A stretch of DNA of 64,000 nucleotides from Nannocystis sp. (GTDB lineage Bacteria; Myxococcota_A; Polyangia; Nannocystales; Nannocystaceae). The stretch's first letter is position 1, and every line of letters starts with the position of its first letter. Below the pieces are notes generated by a model. The model had not been told where the DNA came from. It made no database searches and saw only the letters and a list, made by a program, of their open reading frames with translations. Of this stretch, positions 1 to 30,788 are shown in pieces. The translations under genes were made by a program, and so were the position numbers. The DNA lies in contig NZ_JADJNN010000008.1 in NCBI RefSeq assembly GCF_016714285.1, positions 196,669 to 260,668 of the forward strand. The letters run 5' to 3'.

Positions 1-1180
1 CGTCGACGCCGTCCATGTCCGCGTCGCCGCAGGTGCCCTGGCCGCCGGAGTCGATGTAGATCGCGAAGTCCCGCTTCCCGGCGGCCGCGTAGCGCTCGAT
101 CATCGTCTCGTTGTGCAGGGAGATCGAGCCCCAGCCCATGGTGCCCGAGAGGCTGATCGCCATCGCGTAGCGCTGCGGGTAGAGGTCGGCGATCACCAGC
201 GAGACCAGTCCGCCGAGCGAGGAGCCCATGGTGCCGACCACCGCGGCCTCGCCGTAGGCGGCCTCCATGCGCGGCCGGATGACGCCGTCGACCAGCTCCG
301 CGTAGGCCTCGGCCTGCCCGCCGATCATGTCGATGTCGATGATGTCGGGGACGTGGGTGTACTCGTCGAGGCGGGCCGGGGTGTTGTCGACGCCGATCAG
401 CAGCAGCTCCGGCGGGGCGCTCTCCTGCAGCTTCCAGTAGCCGAAGGCGGCCTCGGGATCGAAGAGGTTCTGGCCGTCGTGGACGTAGAGCGCGTGGGTG
501 AAGGCGCCGTCCTGGGGGACCAGCACCTGGAGATCCCGTGGGCCGAGGCCGGCGCCCTCGAGGCCGAACCAGCGCTCGAGGTGGGCCGCGCTGGCGCGCA
601 CGAGCGAGATGCGACCGTTGGCGTCGTAGTCGTAGCGGCGGCCGAGTGGGTCGGCGATCCAGTCGTCGGCGGCGAGGTCGTGGAACTTGTAGCGGCTGCC
701 GTCGGGCGCGGGCAGCTCCGCCTCGGCCCACCACAGCGCGCCGGTCTGCTGCAGGTCGGCGCCGGCCCAGGCGTCGTGGTCACCCGCGAGCTGCCACTGA
801 CCCGGGCCGCACAGGCAGGCGAACAGGTAGCTGCCGCCCTGGCTCTGCACCGGCAGGCCGCCGCGCCCGGCGATCGTCTGCAGTGCCTCGTCGGGGTCGA
901 CCTCGCCGGCGATCGCCATTCGCAGCAGCGCCTCGTCGTCGGGCAGCGCCGGGCCGCCGGTGGTGGCGTCGTCGGTGGTGGCGTCAGTGGTGGCGACGTC
1001 GGTGGTGGCGCTGCTCGTGCTCGCGTCGGTGGTCGGGGTCGGCTCGCCGGTGCTCGTGGCCACGGTCGTGGCCCACGAGTCGGGGCCGTCGGTCGAGCTG
1101 GCCTGGGTGGTCGAGGGGCCGCCCGCGTCGGGCGAGCAGACTGTGAGTGCCAGCGTGGCGAGGAGCGGGGGGAGGCGCAC
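1..1180 (-). CDS. Secreted alpha/beta-hydrolase (putative esterase, enterochelin-esterase-like fold) with N-terminal Ig-like domain; C-terminus cut by window edge
   Basis: Reverse-strand translation gives a signal peptide (VRLPPLLATLALTVCS), a Thr/Asp-rich linker, then an esterase core with GxSxG (GSSLGG). No stop before position 1. GTG start near 1180. Confidence 0.6.
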   Translation of the reverse strand, partial: MRLPPLLATLALTVCSPDAGGPSTTQASSTDGPDSWATTVATSTGEPTPTTDASTSSATTDVATTDATTDDATTGGPALPDDEALLRMAIAGEVDPDEALQTIAGRGGLPVQSQGGSYLFACLCGPGQWQLAGDHDAWAGADLQQTGALWWAEAELPAPDGSRYKFHDLAADDWIADPLGRRYDYDANGRISLVRASAAHLERWFGLEGAGLGPRDLQVLVPQDGAFTHALYVHDGQNLFDPEAAFGYWKLQESAPPELLLIGVDNTPARLDEYTHVPDIIDIDMIGGQAEAYAELVDGVIRPRMEAAYGEAAVVGTMGSSLGGLVSLVIADLYPQRYAMAISLSGTMGWGSISLHNETMIERYAAAGKRDFAIYIDSGGQGTCGDADMDGVD

Positions 1181-1281
1181 GCGCGCGCTTGTAGCAGCTT
1201 CGTCGCCGAAAATCACAAGGCGCCCGGCCGCAGTGCGGTCGGACGCCTCGAAGTGAATGGCGGAGGAAGTGCCAGCGAATG

Positions 1282-1665
1282 CTAGCGGAGCGCCTCGCGC
1301 AGACGCGGGAGGGTGTCGGGGATGACGACGCTGACGAGGATACCGAGCGAGGCCTTGCTGCAATCGACGGCCATACCCCAGCGGTACTTGGGGTCGAGGT
1401 CGATGACGACGATCATGACCTGACCGTCCTCACCGAGGCGCAGCATGGTCTGGTGGAGGTAGTCAGGCACGGGGAGGCCGGACTTCTTGATCGTCTCGCC
1501 GATGCGCTCGCACAGGATGTTGAAGAGGGCGCAGGCCTTGGGGGAGCTGCGGATGCCGGCGACGGACATGCCAGACGATTTGCTGAACACGTCCGCGGCA
1601 GCCAAGCCGCCCTGCAAGCCGTCTTCGACCTCGGCCATCAGTGCATTTACGGTCTTCAGGTTCAT
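1282..1665 (-). CDS. Small regulatory protein, possible roadblock/LC7 or CheX-like fold (assignment uncertain)
   Basis: 127-aa ORF immediately downstream of a CheY-like regulator on the same strand. alpha/beta pattern of a small signalling-partner protein. No confident family match by eye. Confidence 0.4.
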   Translation of the reverse strand: MNLKTVNALMAEVEDGLQGGLAAADVFSKSSGMSVAGIRSSPKACALFNILCERIGETIKKSGLPVPDYLHQTMLRLGEDGQVMIVVIDLDPKYRWGMAVDCSKASLGILVSVVIPDTLPRLREALR

Positions 1666-1878
1666 TTCGAGGTTCCTTCGTGATCTCTGGCGGTCGCGGT
1701 CTCGCGGCCCAAGCCGAACGCCCCGGCATCCTAACTCGCTTCCGGGGCTGACTCCATCAAATTTTCAACCCGGGCCCAGGTGGCGCTGGACTGTCGCGGG
1801 CGGCCCCAGGCTGGCCAAATCAGGCCAGGAAAACGACGTCTGCTGGCGCGTTCGCGGGCCCGGCGGGTCGCCGAGCGT

Positions 1879-2346
1879 TCAGAAGCTCAGGCCCCGGATC
1901 GGGTCTGGCTCGTCCTTCTGGCTCTCCTTGAGGTAGTGCTGGGCCGCGCGGCGAAGCAGCGTCTTCAGCTCTTCGGTGTCCCAGGGCTTGGTGACGTACT
2001 GCCACATGAGGCCCTCGTTGAGACCGCGGATAACCACATTGATGTCCGCATAACCAGTGATGAGGATGCGGACGGGCGTCGGGTTAATCGCCTTGAGCTT
2101 GCCGAACAGCTCCACGCCGGTCATCTCCGGCATGCGCTGGTCGCTGAGGACGAGGTGGATCTCTTGATCGCGGAAGATCTGCAGCGCCTCGGCGCCGGAG
2201 TTGGCCGTGTGGACCTTGAACATGTCGCGGAAGCTCTCCTCAAGCGTGTTGAGGATGCCGCGCTCGTCGTCGACGATGAGCAGGGTCAGCGTCTTCTTGT
2301 TCTCGGTCCCGAGGGCGCCGGTCTTCTGGTATTCCTTCCAACTCAT
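1879..2346 (-). CDS. Single-domain response regulator (CheY-like receiver)
   Basis: 155 aa; LIVDDE...D...MPEMTG...KP receiver motifs. ATG at 2346. Confidence 0.8.
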   Translation of the reverse strand: MSWKEYQKTGALGTENKKTLTLLIVDDERGILNTLEESFRDMFKVHTANSGAEALQIFRDQEIHLVLSDQRMPEMTGVELFGKLKAINPTPVRILITGYADINVVIRGLNEGLMWQYVTKPWDTEELKTLLRRAAQHYLKESQKDEPDPIRGLSF

Positions 2347-2476
2347 GCGATACCTCGCTGTCTCGGCCTGCGCCGCGGACGGGCCGAATGTCGGGGAACC
2401 AATTGGGCATGGGCATGGGCACGGGCCGGGCTGGCCGTGGCGGTCCCAATGGTGTCATTCGTTGGGGAGAGCGCGC

Positions 2477-3895
2477 TCACGGTAGGTCTCCTGTACCACC
2501 GTCCGCGCCGCGTACGTAGCGAAATGTGGACGCGAAGTGGCGGATTCCCGGCGCCTCGACCTCGAATCGCAGGCCGTGGCGCAGTTTGGGGCCCTTCTCC
2601 TCGAACACGCTGCGGATTACGTCGGCGACGTACTCGAGGTGCTCAAAGGTGTAGACGCGCCGGGGGATGGTGACGCGGCACAGGTCGAGGTTCGGGCGGA
2701 TGTTCTCGCCGGTGTCGGGGTCGCGGCCGATGAGCACGCTGCCGACCTCGACCGCACGCACGCCGCCCTCCTTGTAGAGCTCGGCGCACAGCAGCTGCGC
2801 GGGGAACTCGTCCTCGGGGACGCCGGGGAAGAACTTGCGGGCGTCGATGAAGACCGCGTGGCCGCCGATCGGCTCGACGATCGGCACGCCGAACTTCTGC
2901 AGGAGCTCGCCGAAGCGGCGGACCTGGCCGATGCGGTAGGCCAGGTACGACTCGTCGGTGACCTCGCGCAGGCCCTGGGCCAGCGCCTCCATGTCAGCGC
3001 CCGACATGCCGCCGTAGGTGTAGAAACCCTCGAACAGGATCGTCGGGGCCTTGAGGCGCTCGTACAGGAGGTCGTCGCGCACCGCGATGAAGCCGCCCAT
3101 CGGCACCAGCGCGTCCTTCTTGGCGCTCATGATGCACGCGTCGGTGTACGAGCACATCTCCTGCACGATCTCTGGCACGGACTTGTGGGCGTAGCCGGTC
3201 TCGCGGGTCTTGATGAAGTAGGCGTTCTCGGCGAAGCGGGCGGCGTCGAGGACCACGAGCAGGCCGTACTGGTCGGCGACGCGGCGGACCTCGCGGATGT
3301 TGGCCATCGACACCGGCTGGCCGCCGCCGGAGTTGCAGGTCACGGTGACGAGCACGTAGGCGACGTGGCGGGCGCCGTACTCGCGGATGACGCTCTCGAG
3401 GCGGGGGATGTCGATGTTGCCCTTGAAGGGGTGGTAACCCTCCGAGGTGCGGCCGGCGTCGATTGTGCAGTCGATCGCGCGACCGCCCGCGAACTCGATG
3501 TGGGCCTTGGTCGTGTCGAAGTGCGAGTTGCCGGGCACGATCATGTGCTTCTTGATCAGCACGAAGTCGAAGACCCGCTCGCCGGCGCGGCCTTGATGGA
3601 CCGGGATGGTGTAGCGGTAGCCCATCGACTCGCGGATCTGCCGCTCCATCTCGAAGAAGGAGCGCGAGCCGGCGTAGGCCTCGTCGCCGATCATCATGCG
3701 GCCCATCTGATGGACCGAGAGGGCCCCGGTGCCGCTGTCGGTGATGAGGTCGATGTAGACCTCGTGCGAGCCGAGGCGGAACAGGTTGTTGCCGCAGGCT
3801 TCGATCCTGCGGACCCGCTCCTCGTACGGCAGCAGCGAGATCGGTTCGACGACCTTGGCCCGGTACGGGATGATCTGTCGCTCAGGTTTCCTCAT
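2477..3895 (-). CDS. tnaA: Beta-eliminating lyase: tryptophanase / tyrosine phenol-lyase family (472 aa)
   Basis: Strong similarity along the whole length to TnaA/TPL (DSGTGA, GDEAYAGSRS, SGGGQPVSMAN, SAKKDALVPMGG, GGHAVFIDA, EFPAQ). The ORF's N-terminal extension is junk; the true start is MRKPER, whose ATG overlaps the upstream kinase stop (ATGA). Confidence 0.8.
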   Translation of the reverse strand: MRKPERQIIPYRAKVVEPISLLPYEERVRRIEACGNNLFRLGSHEVYIDLITDSGTGALSVHQMGRMMIGDEAYAGSRSFFEMERQIRESMGYRYTIPVHQGRAGERVFDFVLIKKHMIVPGNSHFDTTKAHIEFAGGRAIDCTIDAGRTSEGYHPFKGNIDIPRLESVIREYGARHVAYVLVTVTCNSGGGQPVSMANIREVRRVADQYGLLVVLDAARFAENAYFIKTRETGYAHKSVPEIVQEMCSYTDACIMSAKKDALVPMGGFIAVRDDLLYERLKAPTILFEGFYTYGGMSGADMEALAQGLREVTDESYLAYRIGQVRRFGELLQKFGVPIVEPIGGHAVFIDARKFFPGVPEDEFPAQLLCAELYKEGGVRAVEVGSVLIGRDPDTGENIRPNLDLCRVTIPRRVYTFEHLEYVADVIRSVFEEKGPKLRHGLRFEVEAPGIRHFASTFRYVRGADGGTGDLP

Positions 3896-5907
3896 GTGCT
3901 CCCCACGGAGGTGGTCTTCGGCGCCTCCGCATCCACCGGGAAGCGGATGAGGAAGGTGACGCCGGTCGGATCGTTGCGCCGCACCGAGATGGTGCCGCGG
4001 TGCTCCATGATGATTCGGTAGCTGATCGAGAGGCCGAGCCCCGTGCCCTTGCCGACCGGCTTGGTGGTGAAGAACGGGTCGAAGATCTTCGACATGTTCG
4101 CCTCGCTGATGCCCTCGCCGTTGTCCGAGACCGTGATCTCGACGAAGCCCTCGTTCTCGCGTGTGCGCACCGCGACCTCCCCTCCACGCTGACACGCGTC
4201 GATGGCGTTGTTCACAAGGTTTAGTACCACCTGGTTCAGCTTCGCTGGGAAGCACGAGTGCGGGCGTGCCAGCCGCAGCTCGGACACCAAAGTCACGCCT
4301 TTGTCGCGCGCGTTGTTGCCGAGGATCATCAGCGTCTGGCGGATGCCCTCGTCGATGTCTGCGGTCTGGAATTGCGCCTCGTCGAGTCGGGCGAAATTGC
4401 GCAGCCCGAGCACGATCTCCGCCATGCGATCGAGGCCGATGAAGCTCTCCTCGAGCACCTTCTGCGTGCGCGCGAGCAGCTCCTCGATCGAGCCCTCGTC
4501 GGCCTCCTTGCGGCGCAGGACGTAGGTGAAGAAGTCGCGGAGCATGTCGAGCTGCCGCGGCGGCGGGAGCGAGCCGAGCTCGTTGCTGACGTCCTTCACG
4601 TCGGCGGCGAGGGCCTTGTCCTGGGCCAGCTTCTCGAGCGTGGTGCGGCCGGCGGCGATGCGCTCCGACTGCGGGCCGTCGACCCGCGCGAGCCAGTTCG
4701 TGGCGGCCAGGCGGCGGCTGACCGAGGTGACGCGGGCGTGGGCGAGGTGGGTGTTGTTGCGGCTGAAGGCGAGGGGGTTGTTGATCTCGTGGGCGACGCC
4801 GGCGGTGAGCTGGCCGAGGCTGGCGAGCTTCTCGCTCTGGACCAGCTGGGCCTGCGAGGTCTTGAGCTCGTGCAGCTGCTCCTTGACGGTGTCGTAGAGC
4901 TGGTTGTTGGTCAGCGAGACGGCGGCCTGGCTGGCCAGCGAGAGGGTGAGCTCGAGCGACTGGTCGTCGTAGGGGATGACGACCTCGTCGATGTTGCCGG
5001 CGCGCAGCTCGGCCGCCCGCGAGGTCTTGCGGTTGATGAGCTGGAGCACCCCGATCACGCGGTCCTCCTGGTTCTTCATCGGCAGGACCAGCATCGAGCG
5101 GGTGCGGTAGCCGGTGCGCTGATCGAAGGCGGGGCTGAAGCTGAACTCGGCGCGCGGGTCGAGCTCGTAGACGTTGGGGATGTTGAGCGGCTCACCGGTG
5201 GCGGCGACGTAGCCGGCGAGGGTCGACTTGCTGACGGGGATGGCGAACTTGACGAGCTCGAGGTCGGGCAGCGAGTCGTTCTGCGAGCTGGTGAAGCGCA
5301 GGCGACCCTGGCCCTCGTCGTCGCGCTCGAGGATGTAGAGCGAGCCGGCGTCGGAGCTGGTGAAGTCGCGGGCCGTGGTGAGGATGAAGTTGAGCAGGCG
5401 CTCCGGGTCGCGCTCGGCGGACAGGGCGATGCCGATGCGGTTGAGCTTGGTGATCTCGCCGGCGAGGCGGCGGCGCTCGTGCTCGAGGGCGAAGCAGCGG
5501 TCGGCGGCGGCGGCCTCGCGCACGGCGCAGCGCAGCGCGACGGCCAGCGCCTGCGGGTCGCCGTCGGGCGGGAGGATGAAGGAGAGGGCGTCGCCGAGGC
5601 GCTCGCGCAGGTTCGCGGCCGCGGGCGCGGGCAGCAGCGCGAGCACCCGCAAGGTGTGTCCGGGGGCGACGCGCAGCTCGGTGCCCTGCAGCGCCTCGTC
5701 GAGCAGCACGACGAGCGGCCGGCCGCGGCGGTTGCTCAGGGCCCGCTCGAGCTCGGCACGGTCGAGCGCTCGCAGCTCGCCAGGGAGGCCGGCGCCAGCC
5801 GCCGCGAGCGGGGACTCGGCGAACGAGCGCGAGCACAGCACGAGCGGTCTGGACTCGTCGGGGGCATGCACCGAAGCTGTCTCATTCGAATGCACCTGGG
5901 TGGCCAT
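3892..5907 (-). CDS. Sensor histidine kinase with GAF domain (N-terminal receiver-like region, HisKA H-box [11 protein letters not shown], HATPase_c with GTGLGL)
   Basis: 671 aa from MATQVHSNE. Coiled-coil/GAF region then the H-box, N, G1 and G2 boxes. Stop overlaps the lyase ATG. Confidence 0.8.
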
Positions 5908-6180
5908 GGTCGGGGATGCGGACGGCAAACACAAGCGAAACGGCGGCGCTGCGGCCCACAGCGGACGCCGGTGTATGCACACAGGTCGCGTGGGGCCGCG
6001 AGGCCGCGGTGATGTGAGCGAGGCTCGCGGCGGGCGCATGTGTTCGCCGCGCGGCTCGGCACACATCGTCCGCGGATGCACGTGGCTGCGGCGCTGGGCT
6101 CGGCATCGGCGATGCGCCCGGGTGCATCGCGCGACGTCGCGCGCCGCGGCGTTGCGTTCGGTGGCGACACAAAGGGCGCC

Positions 6181-6276
6181 GCATTGGCCGACGCATTGGC
6201 CGACGCAATGGCCGCCGCAATGACACATTGGCCGCCGCATTGGGAGCCGCATTGGCCGCCGCACTGGCTGACGTCG
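6181..6276. repeat. 12-bp tandem repeat (GCATTGGCCGCC-like), about 8 degenerate copies, intergenic
   Basis: gcattggccgac gcattggccgac gcaatggccgcc ... read directly from sequence; lies in the upstream region of the histidine kinase. Confidence 0.8.
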
Positions 6277-6293
6277 GTGGCGACGCCGGTGCA

Positions 6294-6326
6294 TTGCACG
6301 TGCCCGCTGGCGCGGCGGGCACGTGC
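6294..6326. terminator. Strong hairpin (13-bp perfect stem tgcacgtgcccgc / gcgggcacgtgca) just 3' of the trpB2 stop
   Basis: Perfect inverted repeat read from sequence, immediately downstream of the minus-strand trpB2 stop. Confidence 0.6.
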
Positions 6327-6332
6327 AGGATC

Positions 6333-7700
6333 TCAGTCGACCTTGGGCAGGGCCGCCATCGCGGCCTCGATCGCCTCGGCCGGGTACTCGTAGTCGGCGA
6401 GGCTGCCGTTGTTGAACGCGTCGTAGGCCGACATGTCGAAGTGGCCGTGGCCGCAGAGGTTGAACAGGATGACGGGCGATGTGCCGGCCTCGGTGGCCTT
6501 GGTCGCCTCGCGGATGACCTGGGCGATCGCGTGGGAGGCTTCGGGGGCCGGGACGATGCCCTCGCTGCGCAGGAACACGCGGGCCGCGGTGAAGGCCTCG
6601 AGCTGGCGGACCGCGTGGGCCTCGATGATCTTCTGATCGTAGAGCTCGCTGATGATGCTGGCCATGCCGTGGTAGCGCAGGCCGCCCGCGTGCACCGGCG
6701 GCGGGATGAAGGCGGCGCCGAGGGTGTGCATCTTGATCAGCGGGGTCATGCCGGCGACGTCGCCGAAGTCGTAGGCATAGACGCCGCGGGTGAGGCTCGG
6801 GCAGGCGGCCGGCTCGACGGCGAGGATCCGGATGTCCTTGTCGTGGGCCAGCTTGTCGCGCACGAAGGGCAGGGCGATGCCGGCGAAGTTGCTGCCGCCG
6901 CCGGTGCAGCCGATGACGATGTCGGGGTAGTCGCCGGCGCGTTTGAGCTGCAGCATCGACTCCTGCCCGATGATGGTCTGGTGCATCAGGACGTGGTTGA
7001 GCACCGAGCCGAGGGCGTACTTGTACTTGCCGCCGCTGGTCGCCGCGGCCTCGACGGCCTCGCTGATCGCCATGCCGAGGGAGCCGGTGTTGTTCGGGTC
7101 CTTCTCGAGGATGGCGCGGCCGCAGTTGGTGAGGTTGCTCGGGCTCGCGTTGACCGTGGCGCCGAAGCTCTGGATCATCGAGCGGCGGTGCGGCTTCTGG
7201 TCATAGCTGACGCGCACCATCCACACGAAGCACTCGAGGCCGAAGAAGTTGCAGGCCTGCGAGATGGCGGTGCCCCACTGGCCCGCGCCGGTCTCGGTGG
7301 TGAGGCCCTGCACGCCCTCTTGCTTGTTGTAGAACGCCTGCGGGACGGCCGTGTTGAGCTTGTGGCTGCCGCTCGGCGAGCCGCCCTCGTACTTGTAATA
7401 AATCCGGGCGGTGGTCCCGAGGGCCTTCTCCAGCCGGCGCGCGCGCAGCAGCGGCGTCGGGCGCCACAGCTTGTAGATCTCACGGACCTCCTCCGGGATC
7501 TCGATGAAGCGCTCGCGGCTGACCTCTTGCTTGATCAGCTCCATCGGGAACAGCGGGGCGAGGTCCGCGGGTCCGATCGGCTGATGCGTCCCCGGGTGTA
7601 GCACCGGGGGTAGCGGTCGCGGCAGGTCGGCCTGGATGTTATACCAGCGGGTCGGGATCGCACTCTGTGGCAGGTCGAATCGCGTCACGGACTCAGTCAT
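6333..7700 (-). CDS. trpB: Tryptophan synthase beta chain, TrpB2 (indole-salvaging) type, 455 aa
   Basis: Conserved PLP-fold-II TrpB motifs (GSHKLN, GGGSNFAG, HAGGLRYHG). The long N-terminal ORF extension is rejected; the ATG is at 7700. Confidence 0.85.
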   Translation of the reverse strand: MTESVTRFDLPQSAIPTRWYNIQADLPRPLPPVLHPGTHQPIGPADLAPLFPMELIKQEVSRERFIEIPEEVREIYKLWRPTPLLRARRLEKALGTTARIYYKYEGGSPSGSHKLNTAVPQAFYNKQEGVQGLTTETGAGQWGTAISQACNFFGLECFVWMVRVSYDQKPHRRSMIQSFGATVNASPSNLTNCGRAILEKDPNNTGSLGMAISEAVEAAATSGGKYKYALGSVLNHVLMHQTIIGQESMLQLKRAGDYPDIVIGCTGGGSNFAGIALPFVRDKLAHDKDIRILAVEPAACPSLTRGVYAYDFGDVAGMTPLIKMHTLGAAFIPPPVHAGGLRYHGMASIISELYDQKIIEAHAVRQLEAFTAARVFLRSEGIVPAPEASHAIAQVIREATKATEAGTSPVILFNLCGHGHFDMSAYDAFNNGSLADYEYPAEAIEAAMAALPKVD

Positions 7701-7947
7701 TCGCGGCTCCAATGCGGCCCATGATATCGCGGTCACAAGCCCGCGGGAACACTCGATCGTCGATCGCTTGCACGGCGAGCGGCGCGACTTCGCGGCGGAG
7801 CGTGGTCGTCGCGATGGGTCGATGCGCGTACACGCGTCGGTGCGGCGCGCGGCGGTGCTCGCAGGATGACTCTTGGGACATGTCCCAAGGGTCACTGGCA
7901 GAATCGCCGCGTCGCGCGCGAACGCCCGAGGGGTGCTGGACCGGGGC

Positions 7948-8001
7948 GGCCTGATCGGCGGCCTGATCGGCGGCCTGATCGGTGGCCCGATTGATGGCCC
8001 G
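7948..8001. repeat. 12-bp tandem repeat (GGCCTGATCGGC x3 plus degenerate copies)
   Basis: ggcctgatcggc ggcctgatcggc ggcctgatcggt ggcccgattgat; intergenic, just 3' of the symporter gene. Confidence 0.8.
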
Positions 8002-8020
8002 CGGTGGCCAGTCAGGCGGG

Positions 8021-9802
8021 TCAGGGGCGGGGCTGGTGGGGGCGGACGGGGAACTCGCCGGCGCGCAGGCGCGCGAAGTATCCGCGGTAGGCGGTCATCG
8101 TGACGCCGCCGAAGAGCAGCATGATCGGGATGTTGACCCACAGCATGATGCCCGTGCCGACGGCGGTGATGTTGTCCAGCTCCTCCTCGGTGGTGATGAC
8201 ACCGGCGCAGGCGACGACGATGCTGACGCAGTAGAAGATCTTGTAGGGGAGGACGCTGCGTCGGCCGGCCATGTAGACCATGCCCTGCTCGCCGTAGTAG
8301 GCCCACGAGATCATGGTCGAAACCGCGAAGAGCCACGACGCGATCGCGACCATCCATTTGCCGAGGCCCGGTGAGACGCGATCGAAGGCGTGGCTGGTGA
8401 GGGCGGCGCCGACGTAGTCCTTGTAGACCTCGGTTGTGTGGAGCGTCGGCGCGACGGCGAGCGGGCCACCGGGGGCGCCCACGGGGGCCCACGTGACGGC
8501 AAGGCGATCTCCCTCGTCGGGCCCGTTGGTGTCGTCGGGCCCGTGGGTGTCGACGCGGACGACGGTGCCGGTGACGCGGCGCAGGTCGGTGCCGCTGCCG
8601 ACGTCGACGGCGCCGTAGCGGGCGAGCAGGAAGACGTTGTCGCCGAGGCGCCAGTCGCTGCCGCTGATGGCGAGGCTCTCGGGGCGCTTGGGCGGGAGCG
8701 GGGTGTCGGGCAGGTCCCACACGCCGGGCTCGACGGCGACGAAGCCCGGCGGCGTGACGAGGGCGGCCTCGCCGTCGCGGTTCCAGGCGCCGCTCGAGAG
8801 CACCACCAGAGAGGTGAGGGTGCAGACGACGATGGTGTCGATGAAGGGCTCGAGGCCGGCGACCACGCCCTCGCGCACGGGCTCGGTGGTCTTGGCGGCG
8901 CAGTGGGCGATCGGCGAGGAGCCCTGGCCGGCCTCGCAGGAGAACAGGGCCCGCTTCATGCCCCACAGCACGGCCATGCCGAAGGTGCCGCCGACGAAGG
9001 CGCCGCTGGCCTCGGCGGGGTTGAAGGCGCTGACGACGATGAGGCGGAGGATGCCGGGGACCTCGCCGATGGTGTGGCCGAGCACGTAGAGCGCGGCGAT
9101 CAGGTACATGCCGCACATCGCCGGGACGATCGCGCCGGCGAAGGCGCCGATGCGCTTGATGCCGCCGAGGATCACGAGGCCGACCAGCACCGCCAGGATC
9201 ACGCCGACGATCGGCTGCGGCACGCCGAAGGACTCCTCGGTGACGACGCCGACGTTCCAGGCCTGGAACATGTTGCCGCCGGTGATCGTGGAGATCAGGA
9301 GGGTGATGCAGAACAGCACGCCGAGGGTGCGGCCGAGCCAGGCGAGCTTGGGGCTGCGCTGGCGCAGGCCGTCGTCGATGACCCACATCGGGCCGCCGCT
9401 CGGCTCGTCGGGGTTGTCGGTGCGGCGAAACAGCATCGACAGGGTGACCTCGGTGGTCTTGAGGGCCATGCCGGCGAGGCCGACGACCCACATCCAGAAC
9501 ACGGCACCGGGGCCGCCGAGAGCGATCGCCACGGCGACGCCGCCGATGTTGCCGAGGCCGACGGTGGCCGAGAGCGCGGCGGAGAGGGCCTGAAAGTGGT
9601 TGATGGCGCCGGGGTCGCGGGCGTCATCGTAGGCGCCGGTGATGACGCGGACGCCGTGGGTCAGCGCGTGGTACTGGCAGAAGCCGCTCCAAATGGTGAA
9701 CAGGAGGCCGACCGCGAGGACGATGTAGAGCACGCTGTCGTGCCAGATCACCGCGTTGATGGCGGTCAGCCAGTCGTTGAGGCCCGTGCGCAGCGCGTCC
9801 AT
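8021..9802 (-). CDS. Alanine/glycine:cation symporter (AGCS family)
   Basis: 593 aa polytopic membrane protein whose conserved blocks fit the AGCS family (PF01235-like). Confidence 0.8.
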   Translation of the reverse strand: MDALRTGLNDWLTAINAVIWHDSVLYIVLAVGLLFTIWSGFCQYHALTHGVRVITGAYDDARDPGAINHFQALSAALSATVGLGNIGGVAVAIALGGPGAVFWMWVVGLAGMALKTTEVTLSMLFRRTDNPDEPSGGPMWVIDDGLRQRSPKLAWLGRTLGVLFCITLLISTITGGNMFQAWNVGVVTEESFGVPQPIVGVILAVLVGLVILGGIKRIGAFAGAIVPAMCGMYLIAALYVLGHTIGEVPGILRLIVVSAFNPAEASGAFVGGTFGMAVLWGMKRALFSCEAGQGSSPIAHCAAKTTEPVREGVVAGLEPFIDTIVVCTLTSLVVLSSGAWNRDGEAALVTPPGFVAVEPGVWDLPDTPLPPKRPESLAISGSDWRLGDNVFLLARYGAVDVGSGTDLRRVTGTVVRVDTHGPDDTNGPDEGDRLAVTWAPVGAPGGPLAVAPTLHTTEVYKDYVGAALTSHAFDRVSPGLGKWMVAIASWLFAVSTMISWAYYGEQGMVYMAGRRSVLPYKIFYCVSIVVACAGVITTEEELDNITAVGTGIMLWVNIPIMLLFGGVTMTAYRGYFARLRAGEFPVRPHQPRP

Positions 9803-9901
9803 TGCATGTGCCCTTCGCCGGGCGACCGGGATGATGACAGGGGGCCGGCGCGCTGCGCAACGCCGGCGATGGCGGCCGCCCTACGCGGGGTGGCGGCGTC
9901 T

Positions 9902-10945
9902 TCAGGGCTTGCTGGTGGGCTCGGGCGCGGGTGCGGGCGCGGGCGGGGCGGCAGCGGGCGGGGCAGTTGCATCGCTCGGGGCAGTTGCATCGCTCGGGCC
10001 TGCTGCCGACGCCGGGGTTGGCGTGGGCGGGGCCACCTTGCCGTCGACGAAGCGCGGGGCGTCGGGGCGGAGGCCGTGCGGGACCTCGACGCGCTCACCG
10101 ATCGTGACGAGGTCGCCGTAGCGGAGGATGTTGACGCGCGCGAGCAGGTCGGCGAACTCCCACGAGCTCTCGTAGTTGATGGCGCCGGGGAACTCGACCT
10201 TGCCGTCCTTGTCGGGCTTCGGGAGCTCGGCCTTGAAGGTCTTGGTGGGCGGGCCGTAGAGGCGGGTGAAGTTGGCGCTGGTCTCCTCGAAGTCCTTGAG
10301 CGCGAGGGCCTGATCCTTGTGGGTGCGCTGGTAGGAGGCGTGGCGCAGCGGGTAGCTGGCGTCGTCGAAGACGTAGAGGAGGCGGCCCGTCGAGGGCGTG
10401 CGGGCGCGGTCGCCGAGCTGGTCGCTGGAGACCTTGGGGCAGCTGAAGCGCAGCTGCGGGTTGGCCTCCCGCTTGCTGCGCTTGTTGACCCACGAGGCGG
10501 CGGTGACTGCATCCTCGCCGCGGGCCTTGGCGTCGGCGATGCGGGCCTTCTCGGACTCGCGGCGCTTGTCCATCATGGCCCGGATCGAGGTGTCGGCGCA
10601 CTTGAGGTTGCGCTTGTAGACGAGGCTCTCGATCTCCGGGAACATCGAGCTGCCGATCGTGGCCTCGAAGGCGACGGTGACCGGGGCGCGCGGGCCGGGG
10701 CCGGGGTCCTTGAACTCGAACTTCCACGCCTCGGGCGCCTGGCCGGGCAGCAGCGAGGACAGGCCGGCGAGCGGGTTCTTGTCGGTTGTGGGCGCGGTGT
10801 TCTCGGCGGGCGGCGGGGCCTGGGGCGTGGGCTCGCTGCAGGCGAGGAGGCCGAGCGCGAGGCCCGTGACGCCGACGAGGCCGGCGAAGTGAACGAGGCC
10901 AGGGACAGGAACGGAGCGGGTGCGCGAGCGGAGCGATGGGTGCAT
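9902..10945 (-). CDS. Hypothetical lipoprotein with C-terminal PSDATA repeats
   Basis: Signal peptide plus lipobox (LGLLAC). No recognisable catalytic domain. Confidence 0.5.
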   Translation of the reverse strand: MHPSLRSRTRSVPVPGLVHFAGLVGVTGLALGLLACSEPTPQAPPPAENTAPTTDKNPLAGLSSLLPGQAPEAWKFEFKDPGPGPRAPVTVAFEATIGSSMFPEIESLVYKRNLKCADTSIRAMMDKRRESEKARIADAKARGEDAVTAASWVNKRSKREANPQLRFSCPKVSSDQLGDRARTPSTGRLLYVFDDASYPLRHASYQRTHKDQALALKDFEETSANFTRLYGPPTKTFKAELPKPDKDGKVEFPGAINYESSWEFADLLARVNILRYGDLVTIGERVEVPHGLRPDAPRFVDGKVAPPTPTPASAAGPSDATAPSDATAPPAAAPPAPAPAPEPTSKP

Positions 10946-11054: not shown

Positions 11055-12113
11055 CTAGCACTTGTCGGGGTCGACGGTGACGATGTCGGCGCACAGCGGG
11101 CCGAGGGCGCCGGCGATGGCGTTCTGGTCGTCGGGGGTCACGCCCTTGTTGGTCATGGCGGTGAAGAGGTGACCGACGAGGGCGTCGAAGTCGGCCTTCT
11201 CGATGCCCATGGCCATCCCGTCGAGGAGGTCCTTGTGCGAGGTGATCATGTCGAGGCAGGGCTTGGCGGCGCCGACGTTTGGATCGGCGGGGGCCGGGGC
11301 GTCGACCTCCTTGCCGTAGATGTCGGCGATCGGCTTGGCGCCGCCGACGGTGGCGCTGGCGACCTGGCGGACCAGGCAGGTCTTGAGGCGCGTGAGGTCC
11401 GAGGTGGCGAAGAAGCTGTTGATGGTCGCGTCCATGGCCACGAGGGGGACGAAGCTGTCGGCGTCCTCGAGGCCGCCGATGACGCTGGCGATGCCGGGCT
11501 TGCGGCCGATCCGCTGGTAGACCGTGACGTCGTTGTTGGCGTCCTCGACGATGTCGGGGGCCATGCCGGCGAGCACGTCGATCACGGCGGCCTTGTCCTC
11601 GGCCGTGAGGGTCGCGACCTCGTCCATCGCCGCGCCGAAGTCGGTGGCGAGGTCGGTGAAGTCGGCGGTCGAGATGCCCATGCCCGCGTGGGCGGTCTTC
11701 ATGTCCATGCAGCCGTAGACGACGCCGGCGCAGCCGACCGCCGCGCCGACCTGGGTCGCGAGGCAGTTGGTGAGGTTGCCGCCGTCGACGTCGGTGGTGA
11801 GGAAGTAGGCGTTGATGCCCTCGTTGACGAGGACCTTGCCCACGAAGCTGTTGATCACGGCCTCGACGCCGGCCTGGCCGCCGAAGTTGGTGCAGATCGG
11901 GCCGTCGGCGGGCTCACCGGTGGAGCCGCTGCCGGTCGGGGTGTCGGTGGCGCTGCCGGTCGGGGTGTCGGTGGCGCTGGCCGTCTCGGTCGCGCTGGTC
12001 GGGCTGCCGGAGGTGCTTGCGTTTTCGGTGTCGTCGCCGCCGCCAACCACGCAGGCTGGCAGGAGGCCAACGGCGCCGACGAGGGCGAGGGATGTGAAGA
12101 TTCGAAGGGCCAT
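11055..12113 (-). CDS. Lipoprotein with two tandem truncated-haemoglobin (trHb, bacterial globin) domains
   Basis: ATG at 12113 with an AGGAG Shine-Dalgarno. Lipobox LLPAC. GSATDTPT linker. Two repeats of a trHb-like pattern (GG..Y.G..M...H.GMGI...FD). Confidence 0.55.
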   Translation of the reverse strand: MALRIFTSLALVGAVGLLPACVVGGGDDTENASTSGSPTSATETASATDTPTGSATDTPTGSGSTGEPADGPICTNFGGQAGVEAVINSFVGKVLVNEGINAYFLTTDVDGGNLTNCLATQVGAAVGCAGVVYGCMDMKTAHAGMGISTADFTDLATDFGAAMDEVATLTAEDKAAVIDVLAGMAPDIVEDANNDVTVYQRIGRKPGIASVIGGLEDADSFVPLVAMDATINSFFATSDLTRLKTCLVRQVASATVGGAKPIADIYGKEVDAPAPADPNVGAAKPCLDMITSHKDLLDGMAMGIEKADFDALVGHLFTAMTNKGVTPDDQNAIAGALGPLCADIVTVDPDKC

Positions 12114-12447
12114 GGGTTCAACTTCTCCTGGGTTAGTGGGTCGCAAGGTGCTTCGCGGGCGAACGCGGCCGGAGGACCCCGCGAGCGGGTCCGGCGTCCA
12201 AGAATGTGTCATGCGCTGCAGCGTCGCCCGGGCGCGAAGTACCTCCGCCCGCGGGCCAGTGTGCCACGGGTCGAGGGGCGAGTGCGTGTCGTGGGCCGCG
12301 TCGAGCTCGCGCTGGTGCGCTGGCAGTTGCGAGCGCGGCGCCGATGCGCAGCGGCTTGCGCGGGGTGTGGCGTGAGGGGCGGCGAGGATCATGGTCGCGG
12401 AGGTGCAGCGCCACGGCGTGGCCCGGGCGGCGGATCGCCGCGAGGGA

Positions 12448-12966
12448 TCAGCCGCGGCCGAGCATGATCCGCGCGCCGGCGATGAGCTGCTTGAGCTCCG
12501 GATCGGCGACGGCATCGAGCGCGCGACGGGTCTCCTCGTCGGGCTCGGGCGAGAAGCGGGGCGCTGGCAGGGGCGGCGGGAGCTGCGTCTCGGGCGGGCG
12601 GCGGATCGCCAGGGGCGGGACCTCGCCGAGCCGGACACGCAGGCTACGCAGGCGAATGCCAGGCGCGAGCTCGCCGAGGCGGCGCAGCAGATCCTGGCGC
12701 AGATAGGTCAGTTCGTGTAGCCACTGGCTGTCATGCACGTTCAAGGTGAGCAGATCGCCGGAGACGCTGGCGGGCCAGCTGTGGGCCTCGAGGGCGGCGC
12801 CGCCGGGGCCGGCGATCCGCGGCCACAGCTCGCGCACCTGCATGAGGCGGATGGTGTCGTCGCCGACGTGGCGGCGCACGAGCTCCCACAGCGCCGCGGC
12901 CATGGGCGAGGGGGCCTGGGGTCTTCCACGGGCGCGGGCGCGGGCCATGTCCGGGCAATCTGCCAC
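12448..12966 (-). CDS. DUF721 / DciA-like protein
   Basis: 172 aa. Central motif W..I.G...A.HS.P....GDLLTL.V.DS.W..EL resembles the DUF721 family. Confidence 0.4.
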   Translation of the reverse strand: MADCPDMARARARGRPQAPSPMAAALWELVRRHVGDDTIRLMQVRELWPRIAGPGGAALEAHSWPASVSGDLLTLNVHDSQWLHELTYLRQDLLRRLGELAPGIRLRSLRVRLGEVPPLAIRRPPETQLPPPLPAPRFSPEPDEETRRALDAVADPELKQLIAGARIMLGRG

Positions 12967-30693: not shown

Positions 30694-30715
30694 GCTCGTC
30701 CTGCAGGCACGCGCC

Positions 30716-30763: not shown

Positions 30764-30788
30764 TCGTGCATCCAGGACGCGCGCGCGA

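What the first reader, a model, noticed from the sequence alone, without database searches (positions are those of the whole stretch)
1282..7700. Sensor kinase translationally coupled to a tryptophanase/TPL-family lyase, with a CheY-like regulator, a small partner protein and an adjacent TrpB2
Directly visible: the GAF-histidine kinase stop and the beta-eliminating lyase start share ATGA (3892-3895). A single-domain response regulator and a roadblock/CheX-like small protein follow on the same strand. A TrpB2 (indole + Ser -> Trp) gene sits immediately upstream behind a strong terminator. The lyase is likely tryptophanase (Trp -> indole), making this a synthesis/salvage pair for a diffusible aromatic signal. 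Putting the lyase inside a two-component operon is unusual, since tnaA is normally controlled by the tnaC leader. This may be a dedicated indole (or phenol) signalling module in a predatory myxobacterium.
Basis: partly seen in the sequence, partly recalled or inferred. Interest (0 to 1): 0.6.

Follow-up and report, generated by a model that had tools for sequence, protein, structure and literature searches.

The report
Tryptophanase embedded in a two-component operon
In Nannocystis and related myxobacteria the indole-forming enzyme tryptophanase is encoded between a soluble sensor kinase and its response regulator in one tightly coupled, conserved operon, an arrangement I found no description of, and one that ties indole production to signal transduction, although what the kinase senses is still unknown.

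Summary
On the minus strand lie TrpB2 (6333-7700), a soluble histidine kinase (3892-5907), a beta-eliminating lyase (2477-3895), a receiver-only regulator (1879-2346) and a 127-aa protein (1282-1665). Kinase stop and lyase start share ATGA at 3892-3895.

The lyase has all five residues that separate tryptophan indole-lyase from tyrosine phenol-lyase in the indole-lyase state. The small protein has a Roadblock/MglB fold, not CheX. The kinase is pseudo-receiver, GAF, DHp (with a ~90-aa insert) and ATPase, with no membrane segment.

Kinase-lyase-regulator is conserved in every kinase orthologue context examined (12 distinct loci, down to 45-51% kinase identity). Eight loci share the ATGA overlap. 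Linked lyases form one clade. Seventy-five Bacteroidota tryptophanase loci and 77 unrelated kinase loci lack the pairing. TrpB2 linkage is confined to one sublineage, where a TrpRS usually follows.

The "indole signalling module" reading is only partly supported. The GAF domain's closest solved relatives bind cAMP or cGMP. The cassette-bearing strain N. punicea FL3 scored indole-negative in an API test.

Best reading: a co-inherited circuit coupling tryptophan-to-indole conversion to a cytoplasmic two-component system. It is a new variant of a known kind, of moderate-to-good interest.

The parts
8021..9802 (-). AGCS-family Na+:alanine/amino-acid symporter. It is an upstream neighbour conserved in the type-1 arrangement only.
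   Evidence: Pfam Na_Ala_symp 380 bits and TIGR00835 406 bits. The orthologue sits upstream of TrpB2 in L009, L091 and L092.
6333..7700 (-). TrpB2, a stand-alone TrpB-like PLP enzyme (indole + serine or phosphoserine -> Trp). It is an accessory neighbour with its own 3' hairpin.
   Evidence: NF009057 718 bits (cut-off 366) and TIGR01415 612 bits. It is linked to the cassette in the window, L001/2, L009, L091 and L092, but not in L004/6/7/11/171/172.
6295..6327 (-). Perfect 13-bp hairpin with a 7-nt loop, starting 6 nt after the TrpB2 stop. No U tract follows.
   Evidence: -28.5 kcal/mol, z = -3.0; not called by the terminator scan. Strong hairpins of different sequence sit at the same place in L001 and L009, but not in L091 or L092.
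6180..6273 (-). 12-nt tandem repeat (CGCATTGGCCGA, about 8 copies) in the TrpB2-kinase spacer.
   Evidence: L091 has an unrelated 8-nt repeat (GATGCGGT, about 11 copies) at the same place; L092, L009 and L001 have none.
5906..5935 (-). Conserved 30-nt element CTTGTNTTTG-N9-TNCNNGANCAT abutting or overlapping the kinase start. It is a candidate promoter or 5' element of the kinase-lyase-regulator operon.
   Evidence: Exact in the window, L001/2 and L091; near-exact in L009 and L092. It occurs once in the window at up to 3 mismatches, against 0.02 expected. It is absent upstream of type-2 and type-3 kinases.
3892..5907 (-). Soluble histidine kinase: pseudo-receiver, coiled coil, GAF, DHp (with a ~90-aa insert) and ATPase. 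The start is uncertain: ATG 5907, GTG 5895, or GTG 5871 as in NCBI's 659-aa call.
   Evidence: Pfam and NCBIfam. No membrane segment; maximum Kyte-Doolittle 19-residue mean 1.12. 100% identical to WP_293252206.1 of Nannocystis sp.. Family alignment.
5533..5850 (-). N-terminal receiver-like (beta-alpha)5 domain of the kinase (about residues 20-125). Only the Asp at the end of beta3 (D70) is conserved.
   Evidence: AF2 pLDDT 87.7. The top Foldseek hits are nearly all receiver domains, including the REC-GAF-HK 'dual sensor kinase' 6oap/6oaq. D70 is invariant in 22 orthologues.
4909..5415 (-). GAF domain of the kinase (about residues 165-333), of the cyclic-nucleotide-binding GAF lineage.
   Evidence: Pfam GAF 54.8 bits. 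Closest solved relatives: CyaB2 1ykd E = 7e-27, PDE5 3lfv E = 3e-21, plus PDE2A, PDE10A and the HD-GYP protein 4mcw.
3931..4245 (-). HATPase_c catalytic domain. The phospho-acceptor His373 in the HEINNPL box is encoded at 4789-4791.
   Evidence: Pfam HATPase_c 92.6 bits. The H, N, G1, F and G2 boxes are invariant in the family alignment.
3892..3895 (-). ATGA overlap of the kinase stop and the lyase start (translational coupling).
   Evidence: The same overlap is present in L001/2, L004/5/10, L006, L009, L091, L092 and L093.
2477..3895 (-). TnaA-type tryptophan indole-lyase, 472 aa. The PLP lysine K260 is encoded at 3116-3118.
   Evidence: PF01212 253 bits and PRK13238 627 bits. D127, F291, V382, V384 and H453 are the indole-lyase states of the five discriminators. 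NCBI names it tryptophanase, MBK7826671.1.
1879..2346 (-). Receiver-only response regulator, 155 aa, with an intact D26/D27, D69, T97, K120 set.
   Evidence: Pfam Response_reg 81 bits. The best NCBIfam match is the receiver of a NosR-family HD-GYP regulator at 144 bits. Closest solved structure is 3hv2, the receiver of an HD-domain regulator. It follows the lyase in all 12 cassette loci.
1282..1665 (-). Roadblock/LC7/MglB-fold protein, 127 aa. It is an accessory member of the cassette in the Nannocystis-like clade.
   Evidence: AF2 pLDDT 90.6. Foldseek to Roadblock and MglB, TM 0.75-0.78, E about 1e-6. It lies downstream of the regulator in type 1 and upstream of the kinase in type 2. N. punicea also has two unlinked paralogues.

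Best explanation
The kinase, lyase and regulator genes form one vertically inherited, co-translated operon, specific to Nannocystaceae and related Myxococcota.

**What the sequence and comparisons show**
- The enzyme is a genuine TnaA-type tryptophanase (Trp -> indole + pyruvate + NH3).
- The kinase is cytoplasmic. It has a pseudo-receiver, a cyclic-nucleotide-type GAF sensor and a complete catalytic core.
- The regulator has an intact phospho-acceptor site and no output domain.

**What I infer**
- The module is a control circuit for tryptophan-to-indole conversion.
- The kinase reads an intracellular small molecule through its GAF domain. By homology the default candidate is a cyclic nucleotide. 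Indole or Trp are candidates only by gene context.
- The kinase phosphorylates the output-less regulator, which acts by protein contact. Possible targets are the co-produced tryptophanase, the kinase itself, or (in Nannocystis) the linked Roadblock protein and the gliding-polarity machinery.
- In the window's sublineage the cassette sits in a tryptophan-centred neighbourhood (TrpB2, and TrpRS in relatives). Indole made by TnaA or received from prey could there be recaptured as Trp.
For: - **Linkage from the kinase side.** Every kinase orthologue context examined carries lyase then regulator: the window, L001/2, L004/5/10, L006, L009, L091, L092, L093, L171 and L172, plus the short-kinase loci L007 and L011.
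- **Coupling.** ATGA overlap in 8 distinct loci; -1, +2, about +8 and +24 nt in the rest, mostly with a GGAG-type ribosome site upstream.
- **Co-inheritance.** Linked lyases form one clade in a neighbour-joining tree, with one nested loss (L003). The unlinked myxobacterial lyases L008, L012 and L013 branch outside it.
- **Negative controls.** None of 75 Bacteroidota tryptophanase loci has the kinase. None of 77 unrelated kinase loci has a lyase.
- **Enzyme identity.** Five of five discriminating residues are in the indole-lyase state, in all 33 aligned myxobacterial homologues (residue list from PMC5805759). The PLP Lys and other catalytic residues are invariant.
- **Kinase.** No membrane segment; REC-like domain; GAF closest to CyaB2 and PDE GAFs; H, N, G1, F and G2 boxes invariant.
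- **Regulator.** D26/D27, D69, T97 and K120 are visible in the sequence.
- **Roadblock protein.** It keeps its linkage through a change of gene order between type 1 and type 2.
- **Tryptophan context.** TrpB2 lies upstream. A trpS gene (TIGR00233, 248 bits, above cut-off) lies downstream in L001/2, L009 and L091.
- **Native origin.** Cassette GC3 is 0.89-0.95, so this is not a recent import.
Against: - No experiment links the kinase or regulator to tryptophanase. Co-transcription of the regulator and Roadblock genes in this window is uncertain, with spacers of 130 and 213 nt.
- A 4-nt overlap is common in bacterial operons and does not by itself indicate a protein complex.
- The GAF ligand is unknown. 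The D and E of the NKFDE motif of cyclic-nucleotide GAFs are replaced by S and L.
- N. punicea FL3, which carries the cassette (L009), scored indole-negative in API NE. The test was run for 24 h at 37 C, above the strain's stated growth range (PMC10435759).
- A lyase 80% identical occurs without the kinase (L003), so the enzyme can function alone.
- Two of three Roadblock paralogues in N. punicea are unlinked.
- The tree has no bootstrap support values.
Confidence: 0.5

Rival explanations
1. Indole autoinduction loop. TnaA is the signal synthase. Membrane-permeant indole is sensed directly by the cytoplasmic GAF kinase. The regulator relays population or prey information. This would be a quorum-sensing-like synthase-receptor cassette.
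For: - Synthase and receptor genes are typically co-located in autoinducer systems such as cqsA-cqsS, lqsA-lqsR-lqsS and agrBDCA (my knowledge).
- A soluble kinase fits a freely diffusing ligand.
- Linkage is strict and long-standing.
- Indole induces sporulation in the myxobacterium Stigmatella aurantiaca, as cited in PMC3126691.
- TrpB2 next door could act as an indole sink.
Against: - The closest solved relatives of the GAF domain bind cAMP or cGMP. I know of no GAF domain shown to bind indole.
- Strain FL3 was indole-negative in API NE.
- No transcriptional output is encoded that could close a feedback loop.
Confidence: 0.2
2. Plain catabolic operon with a hitch-hiking two-component system. 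Tryptophanase serves amino-acid catabolism in a protein-feeding predator. The kinase and regulator respond to an unrelated cue such as a cyclic nucleotide or starvation, and merely share a promoter.
For: - The GAF domain is of cyclic-nucleotide type.
- In E. coli tnaA is under cAMP-CRP control (my knowledge), so a link between starvation and tryptophanase has a precedent.
- An amino-acid symporter lies nearby.
- The lyase occurs alone in L003, L008, L012 and L013.
Against: - The strict three-gene linkage persists to 45-51% kinase identity while all flanking genes change. That is hard to explain without a functional tie.
- No kinase orthologue was found away from a lyase.
- The regulator has no DNA-binding domain, so it is not a simple transcriptional controller of a catabolic operon.
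Confidence: 0.17
3. The lyase works mainly on another substrate in vivo, for example as a cysteine or S-alkylcysteine desulfhydrase, or in the synthetic direction. The module would then concern sulfide, pyruvate or ammonia rather than indole.
For: - Tryptophanases are known to be promiscuous beta-eliminating lyases (my knowledge; see also the title of PMC12943590).
- The protein scores below NCBIfam's equivalog cut-offs for TnaA: 567 against 750, and 485 against 826.
- The API indole test on FL3 was negative.
Against: - All five indole-pocket discriminators are in the indole-lyase state and nearly invariant across the clade.
- The neighbours TrpB2 and TrpRS are tryptophan-specific.
Confidence: 0.1

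Closest known systems
Enterobacterial tnaCAB operon (E. coli, Proteus vulgaris tryptophanase)
   Same: Same enzyme family and predicted reaction. The five indole-pocket residues, the PLP lysine and the catalytic Tyr and Arg are conserved. It scores 457 bits to P. vulgaris TnaA 1ax4 and 389 bits to E. coli TnaA.
   Different: - There is no TnaC leader peptide and no TnaB permease. The lyase start codon lies inside the stop of a histidine kinase gene, so there is no room for a leader.
- No Rfam element was found.
- The operon partners are signalling proteins.
- Identity to enterobacterial enzymes is modest, and the protein falls below the equivalog cut-offs.
Autoinducer synthase / sensor kinase / regulator clusters with a PLP-dependent synthase (Vibrio cqsA-cqsS; Legionella lqsA-lqsR-hdeD-lqsS). 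The comparison rests on my knowledge.
   Same: A PLP-dependent enzyme that makes a small diffusible molecule is encoded beside a sensor histidine kinase and a response regulator.
   Different: - CqsS and LqsS are membrane kinases that sense the product through transmembrane helices. Here the kinase is soluble with a GAF sensor.
- The enzymes are from different PLP families: CqsA and LqsA are aminotransferase-like acyl transferases.
- Nothing here shows that the product is the ligand.
REC-GAF-histidine kinase 'dual sensor' architecture (PDB 6oap/6oaq/6ob8)
   Same: The domain order is receiver-like, GAF, DHp, ATPase. These are among the top structural matches of the N-terminal domain.
   Different: That GAF domain is a bilin-binding cyanobacteriochrome and its receiver is phosphorylatable (a BeF3-bound structure exists). 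Here the GAF domain is of cyclic-nucleotide type. The receiver-like domain lacks the acidic pair, the Thr/Ser and the Lys.
Cyclic-nucleotide-binding GAF domains (Anabaena CyaB2; PDE2, PDE5, PDE10)
   Same: These are the best solved sequence relatives of the sensor domain, with E = 7e-27 to 8e-10. The AG.VA..G..LNIP ... DQ.TGY.T.S.L..P..N ... GV.Q..NK core is shared.
   Different: - The output is a histidine kinase rather than a cyclase or phosphodiesterase.
- The NKFDE motif is only partly kept. N292, R/K and Y/F are present, but D and E are replaced by S and L.
- Ligand binding was not tested.
Roadblock/LC7 partners of signalling proteins: MglB (GAP of MglA in Myxococcus polarity) and CvnB of Streptomyces conservons
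   Same: The fold is the same alpha-beta-beta-alpha-beta-beta-beta-alpha, with TM 0.75 to M. xanthus MglB and 0.69-0.70 to the S. avermitilis Roadblock protein 3kye. As in conservons, a Roadblock gene is linked to a histidine-kinase gene (my knowledge).
   Different: - No small GTPase gene is in the cassette.
- Sequence identity is 10-15%, and there is no Pfam Roadblock hit.
- The protein is absent from the more distant cassette loci L007, L011, L171 and L172.

Membership tests
Tryptophan indole-lyase (TnaA, EC 4.1.99.1) | Membership of the beta-eliminating lyase / tryptophanase-TPL family by profile | tested here: met
   PF01212 at 253 bits (cut-off 27). NCBIfam subfamily PRK13238 at 627 bits (cut-off 285).
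Tryptophan indole-lyase (TnaA, EC 4.1.99.1) | [quoted passage not shown] | tested here: met
   The window has D127, F291, V382, V384 and H453. Four are identical and one is Ile->Val. In 33 myxobacterial homologues the counts are D 33/33, F 30 (Y 3), V 31, V 25 (I 8) and H 33/33.
Tryptophan indole-lyase (TnaA, EC 4.1.99.1) | PLP-binding lysine and the catalytic Tyr, Arg and Asp of the family | tested here: met
   K259/K260 (SAKKD), Y74, R103, N188, D217, R220 and R407 are invariant in alignment A1.
Tryptophan indole-lyase (TnaA, EC 4.1.99.1) | NCBIfam equivalog score for TnaA | tested here: not met
   NF053783 scores 567 bits against a cut-off of 750. TIGR02617 scores 485 against 826. These models are built on other lineages. 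The protein is a divergent clade member, so I file it as TnaA-type, not as an equivalog.
Tryptophan indole-lyase (TnaA, EC 4.1.99.1) | Indole formation from L-tryptophan | not testable with these tools
   The only indirect datum is that N. punicea FL3, which carries an 88% identical lyase (L009), was API NE indole-negative after 24 h at 37 C (PMC10435759).
[quoted passage not shown] | Thr124, Met288, Met379, Arg381 and Phe448 (C. freundii numbering) | tested here: not met
   The corresponding residues are D, F, V, V and H (alignment to 2ycp). TIGR02618 scores 535 bits against a cut-off of 721.
tnaCAB-type regulation | Upstream TnaC leader peptide with a Rho-dependent attenuator, and a linked tnaB permease | tested here: not met
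   The lyase ATG overlaps the kinase stop codon. No RNA family was found. No permease is in the operon.
Two-component histidine kinase (HisKA class) | H box with phospho-acceptor His, plus N, G1, F and G2 boxes | tested here: met
   H373 in [30 protein letters not shown] and GTGLGLS are all invariant in 22 orthologues. HATPase_c scores 92.6 bits. HisKA scores 24.1 bits, just below its 26.9 cut-off, because a ~90-aa insert splits the DHp.
Response regulator receiver (CheY-like) | Acidic pair, phospho-acceptor Asp, Thr/Ser and Lys | tested here: met
   The regulator has D26/D27, D69, T97 and K120 (sequence). PF00072 scores 81 bits.
Receiver domain (N-terminus of the kinase) | (beta-alpha)5 fold plus the catalytic residue set | tested here: inconclusive
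   The fold test is met: AF2 pLDDT 87.7, and Foldseek hits are nearly all receivers at probability about 1.0 and TM 0.45-0.58. Of the catalytic set only D70 is conserved; the acidic pair, the Thr and the Lys are absent. There is no Pfam hit. It is best called a pseudo-receiver.
Cyclic-nucleotide-binding GAF domains | Sequence membership plus the NKFDE motif | tested here: inconclusive
   The closest solved relatives are CyaB2, PDE5, PDE2 and PDE10 GAFs. Of the motif, N292, R293/K294 and Y312 are present, but D and E align to S and L. Ligand binding is not testable here.
Roadblock/LC7 (MglB-like) | Roadblock fold; Pfam profile match | tested here: inconclusive
   The fold test is met. There is no Pfam or NCBIfam hit at E <= 0.01. 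UniRef labels orthologues 'Roadblock/LAMTOR2 domain-containing'. No partner GTPase is in the locus.
TrpB2 (stand-alone TrpB-like enzyme) | Equivalog profile score | tested here: met
   NF009057 scores 718 bits (cut-off 366). It scores only 149 bits to canonical trpB TIGR00263 (cut-off 392).

The most novel reading that the evidence does not exclude
The cassette is a self-contained indole communication unit. Tryptophanase is the signal synthase, the soluble GAF kinase is a dedicated indole (or Trp/indole-ratio) receptor, and the receiver-only regulator, with the Roadblock protein, feeds into the MglA/MglB-type polarity switch. Together they would steer gliding, swarming or fruiting in response to self- or prey-derived indole. 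To my knowledge this would be the first dedicated bacterial indole receptor kinase and the first GAF domain shown to bind indole.
Probability: 0.15. Interest if true: 0.85.

Novelty: new variant of a known kind. Interest (0 to 1): 0.58.

Why it matters
Indole is a widespread bacterial signal, yet no dedicated receptor kinase for it is established. How tryptophanase is controlled outside the enterobacteria is also largely unknown (both statements rest on my knowledge).

Here the enzyme has been locked between a sensor kinase and its regulator through the divergence of a whole myxobacterial lineage. That gives a concrete genetic handle on how indole production is wired to signal transduction in social, predatory bacteria. 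It is testable with one purified GAF domain, one phosphotransfer assay and three deletions.

If the regulator acts on the enzyme, it would be a new case of post-translational control of a metabolic enzyme by a receiver-only regulator. If the kinase senses indole, it would define a new receptor class.

Full-text searches of the held library found no paper on tryptophanase in Nannocystis or on a tnaA, kinase and regulator operon. The genes are annotated individually in public records.

Tried and rejected
- **Apparent kinase-lyase fusion.** P0344 is a 705-aa 'tryptophanase' in the lyase's 90% cluster. Its N-terminal part is the kinase C-terminus read partly out of frame, so it is an assembly or frameshift artefact, not a Rosetta-stone fusion.
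- **RNA elements.** An Rfam scan of 1-10200 at E <= 1 gave only two chance-level hits (a microRNA and a twister-P5 ribozyme, both far below gathering score). No T-box, riboswitch or attenuator family was found.
- **Terminator scan.** It gave 3 sites against 2.9 expected and missed the post-TrpB2 hairpin, which has no T tract.
- **18-bp palindrome.** CTTGGGACATGTCCCAAG at 7872-7889 is unique in the window but absent from all 172 loci, so I did not pursue it as an operator.
- **First motif pattern.** My first pattern for the conserved element upstream of the kinase used the wrong spacer (N10) and found nothing. With N9 it matched.
- **Truncated scans.** They returned only 5 and 3 myxobacterial loci respectively. 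The remaining loci served as negative controls rather than a census.
- **Source contig.** The exact look-up of the window's own kinase contig failed, as it is not on record. Provenance came from cluster membership instead.
- **Horizontal transfer.** The cassette has lower G+C (0.62-0.69) than its flanks, but GC3 is 0.89-0.95, like the neighbours. I therefore rejected a recent import.
- **Nearby cyclic-nucleotide genes.** No cyclase or cNMP-binding gene was found among the ten ORFs tested at 11-33 kb of this window. A cNMP_binding protein is a conserved neighbour in type-2 loci, and a cyclase lies near L007. I treat this as suggestive only.
- **CheX-like reading.** I rejected it for the small protein, because all top fold matches are Roadblock, MglB, LAMTOR or Rag C-terminal domains.

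Full report
**1. What is in the window**

The region is G+C-rich (0.64-0.73). Five co-directional minus-strand genes can be read from the ORF list and profile searches:

| Gene | Coordinates | Size | Evidence |
|---|---|---|---|
| AGCS amino-acid symporter | 8021-9802 | 593 aa | Na_Ala_symp 380 bits |
| TrpB2 | 6333-7700 | 455 aa | NF009057 718 bits, cut-off 366 |
| Histidine kinase | 3892-5907 | 671 aa | GAF, HisKA, HATPase_c |
| Beta-eliminating lyase | 2477-3895 | 472 aa | PF01212 253 bits; PRK13238 627 bits, cut-off 285 |
| Receiver-only regulator | 1879-2346 | 155 aa | Response_reg 81 bits |
| Small protein | 1282-1665 | 127 aa | no Pfam or NCBIfam hit |

The kinase stop and the lyase start share ATGA at 3892-3895, and a GGGGAG ribosome-binding sequence lies 4 nt upstream of the ATG.

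All five products are exact matches to proteins of a Nannocystis sp. metagenome-assembled genome. The accessions are consecutive: MBK7826669 (hypothetical), -670 (response regulator), -671 (tryptophanase) and -673 (TrpB-like). The kinase is WP_293252206.1. The genes are therefore individually annotated in public records. Full-text searches found no paper on tryptophanase in Nannocystis or on a tnaA, kinase and regulator operon.

**2. Checking the details of the observation**

The structure after TrpB2 is a perfect 13-bp stem with a 7-nt loop at 6295-6327. The 56-nt segment folds at -28.5 kcal/mol with z = -3.0. No U tract follows it, and the consensus terminator scan did not call it. Strong hairpins of unrelated sequence occupy the same position in two relatives (L001 z = -3.2; L009 z = -2.7). 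Two others have none (L091, L092). A 3'-end hairpin is therefore plausible but not universal.

The rest of the 425-nt spacer holds a 12-nt tandem repeat (6180-6273). Directly at the kinase start lies a 30-nt element, CTTGTNTTTG-N9-TNCNNGANCAT (5906-5935). This element is conserved in all five type-1 relatives, while the rest of the spacer is not. It is a candidate promoter or 5' element for an operon that starts at the kinase.

Because the element overlaps the first ATG, and because L091 has a 1-nt indel just after it, the true start codon is uncertain. The candidates are ATG 5907, GTG 5895, or GTG 5871 as in NCBI's 659-aa call.

**3. The lyase is tryptophanase-type**

By whole-sequence score it is equidistant from solved tryptophanases and tyrosine phenol-lyases (475 bits to each best hit). 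It falls below NCBIfam's equivalog cut-offs for both.

The residue test decides the matter. A published comparison lists five active-site positions that differ between the two enzymes (PMC5805759):

| E. coli indole-lyase | C. freundii phenol-lyase | Window |
|---|---|---|
| Asp137 | Thr124 | D127 |
| Phe304 | Met288 | F291 |
| Val394 | Met379 | V382 |
| Ile396 | Arg381 | V384 |
| His463 | Phe448 | H453 |

The window residues come from the residue-by-residue alignments to C. freundii TPL and P. vulgaris TnaA. Across 33 myxobacterial homologues these positions are D 33/33, F 30 (Y 3), V 31, V 25 (I 8) and H 33/33. The PLP lysine pair and the catalytic Tyr, Arg and Asp are invariant. Phenol-lyase is excluded.

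**4. The partners**

*Kinase.* It has no membrane segment.
- Its first 150 residues fold with confidence (pLDDT 87.7) into a (beta-alpha)5 domain. The top structural matches are nearly all receiver domains, including the REC-GAF-kinase 'dual sensor' proteins 6oap and 6oaq.
- Only the Asp at the end of beta3 (D70) is conserved, so it is best called a pseudo-receiver.
- The GAF domain is highly conserved within the family. Its closest solved relatives are cyclic-nucleotide-binding GAFs: Anabaena CyaB2 (E = 7e-27), PDE5 (3e-21), PDE2A, PDE10A and a GAF-HD-GYP protein. The NKFDE motif is only partly kept.
- Outside the orthologue group, the next sequence relatives are GAF-HD-GYP phosphodiesterases.
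- The DHp has an intact HEINNPL box followed by a ~90-residue insert. The ATPase boxes are invariant.

*Regulator.* It has a complete phospho-acceptor set (D26/D27, D69, T97, K120) and no output domain. Its receiver is most like those of HD-GYP-type regulators.

*Small protein.* It is predicted at pLDDT 90.6 as alpha-beta-beta-alpha-beta-beta-beta-alpha. It matches Roadblock proteins and MglB at TM 0.75-0.78.

**5. Conservation of the arrangement**

Starting from lyase homologues and kinase homologues, I read gene neighbourhoods. I then scanned the fetched loci with the window's proteins. Three arrangements appear.

- **Type 1:** AGCS, TrpB2, kinase, TnaA, regulator, Roadblock. Found in the window, L001/2, L009 (N. 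punicea FL3), L091 and L092. L093 is a 3.6-kb contig that holds only the kinase, lyase and regulator genes and groups with the type-1 loci in the lyase tree.
- **Type 2:** Roadblock, kinase, TnaA, regulator, with a divergent PatA_N-REC gene. Found in L004/5/10 and L006.
- **Type 3:** kinase, TnaA, regulator, without Roadblock. Found in L171 and L172 (full-length kinase, 51% identity) and in L007 and L011 (shorter 485-aa kinase in L007; 45-50% identity over the C-terminal half).

Every kinase orthologue context examined has the lyase and then the regulator. The junction is ATGA in eight distinct loci and -1, +2, about +8 and +24 nt in the others.

In a neighbour-joining tree the kinase-linked lyases form one clade. 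One unlinked lyase, L003 (80% identity), is nested inside it, which suggests a loss or relocation. The other unlinked myxobacterial lyases (L008, L012, L013) fall outside (no bootstrap).

As controls, none of 75 Bacteroidota tryptophanase loci has the kinase, and none of 77 unrelated kinase loci has a lyase. Cassette GC3 is native.

The Roadblock gene keeps its linkage despite changing sides. It is missing from the more distant loci, and N. punicea has two further unlinked paralogues. It is therefore an accessory partner.

TrpB2 and the transporter are type-1 features only. In L001/2, L009 and L091 a trpS gene follows the Roadblock gene (TIGR00233, 248 bits, above cut-off). In this window an esterase gene sits there instead, and no trpS is present in the 64 kb.

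**6. How it most likely works**

Shown:
- a co-inherited, tightly coupled kinase-TnaA-regulator operon;
- a TnaA-type active site;
- a soluble kinase with a cyclic-nucleotide-type GAF sensor;
- a phosphorylatable regulator without an output domain.

Inferred:
- The three proteins form one functional circuit that ties tryptophan-to-indole conversion to a cytoplasmic signal.
- A receiver-only regulator must act through protein contacts. The most economical targets are its operon partners, namely tryptophanase or the kinase. In Nannocystis the Roadblock protein is a further candidate, and its family works with small GTPases in myxobacterial polarity control (my knowledge).
- The ligand is open. 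Homology points to a cyclic nucleotide, while context points to indole or Trp.
- Tight control of the enzyme could also account for one published datum. Strain FL3, which carries the cassette, was indole-negative in API NE. That test ran for 24 h at 37 C, above the strain's stated growth range, so the result is weak (PMC10435759).
- In type-1 genomes the adjacent TrpB2 can recapture indole as Trp. TrpB2 as an indole-salvage enzyme is cited in PMC11085991.

Rivals are the indole autoinduction loop, a plain catabolic operon with an unrelated two-component system, and a lyase acting on another substrate. They are weighed in their own section.

**7. Comparison with known systems and novelty**

- The enzyme is a member of the tryptophanase family, but the regulation is not tnaCAB-like. 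There is no leader, no permease and no room for either.
- The closest analogues in logic are the cqs and lqs clusters: a PLP-dependent signal synthase beside a kinase and a regulator (my knowledge). Those kinases are membrane-bound and sense the product directly, which is not shown here.
- The kinase architecture resembles REC-GAF-kinase dual sensors.
- The Roadblock-kinase pairing recalls Streptomyces conservons, but no GTPase is present.

All parts are known families. The conserved combination, with a tryptophanase placed inside a two-component operon, is to my knowledge undescribed. I rate it a new variant of a known kind, with interest 0.58. The most novel reading still open is a dedicated indole receptor kinase. 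I give it a probability of about 0.15, and it would be of high interest if true.

Noticed in passing
window 6180-6273 (also 7945-8001); L091 about 5772-5860: Intergenic tandem repeats flank TrpB2. One is a 12-nt unit CGCATTGGCCGA, about 8 copies, between TrpB2 and the kinase. Another is a 12-nt unit GGCGGCCTGATC, about 4 copies, just after the AGCS stop. The relative L091 has an unrelated 8-nt repeat (GATGCGGT, about 11 copies) in the TrpB2-kinase spacer, while L092, L009 and L001 have none. The spacer therefore looks hypervariable.
   Followed up: partly
window 7872-7889: A perfect 18-bp palindrome, CTTGGGACATGTCCCAAG, lies in the AGCS-TrpB2 spacer. It is unique in the window (0 expected) but is not found in any of the 172 fetched loci. 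It could be an operator or a 3' hairpin.
   Followed up: partly
window 1-1281 compared with L001 6772-7851, L009 12877-13965 and L091 10863-11993: In close relatives a tryptophanyl-tRNA synthetase gene (TIGR00233, 248 bits) follows the Roadblock gene. In this window that position holds a Thr/Ala-rich putative esterase (PF00756), and no trpS is present anywhere in the 64 kb. Synteny breaks right after 1282.
   Followed up: partly
window about 4470-4750 (kinase residues about 390-480): A ~90-residue insertion lies between the H-box helix and the second DHp helix of the kinase. It is conserved in length across the family. Profile matches to known kinases are split into two stretches by it. Its structure and role are unknown.
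   Followed up: no
L004/L005 2203-5019; L006 2099-4958; L007 1-3013: Type-2 cassette loci share a conserved upstream block: DUF4920, a small cNMP_binding protein, an S41 peptidase and a divergent PatA_N-receiver regulator. L007 has an adenylate/guanylate cyclase-domain protein nearby. This is suggestive, given the cyclic-nucleotide-type GAF domain of the kinase.
   Followed up: no
L171 10982-11919: In one distant cassette locus the regulator gene is followed by a flavin reductase (HpaC/RutF/StyB-like, 129 bits, below cut-off) and a 144-aa protein with no family hit. Flavin reductases partner the two-component monooxygenases that oxidise aromatic compounds, some of which act on indole (the last point is my knowledge).
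   Followed up: no
window 30438-33200 (+): An ORF of about 920 aa matches the Major Vault Protein shoulder domain (99 bits), a vault repeat and SPFH/Band 7. This is a bacterial MVP-like protein.
   Followed up: no
window 11055-12707 (-): An ORF has a weak bacterial-like globin domain match (25.8 bits, cut-off 21), two genes upstream of the AGCS transporter gene.
   Followed up: no
L089 8001-8384; L090 8001-8384 (N. punicea FL3): Two extra paralogues of the 127-aa Roadblock-fold protein (75% and 66% identity) sit in unrelated contexts. One is flanked on both sides by ABM (antibiotic biosynthesis monooxygenase) domain genes. The family appears to have expanded in Nannocystis.
   Followed up: partly
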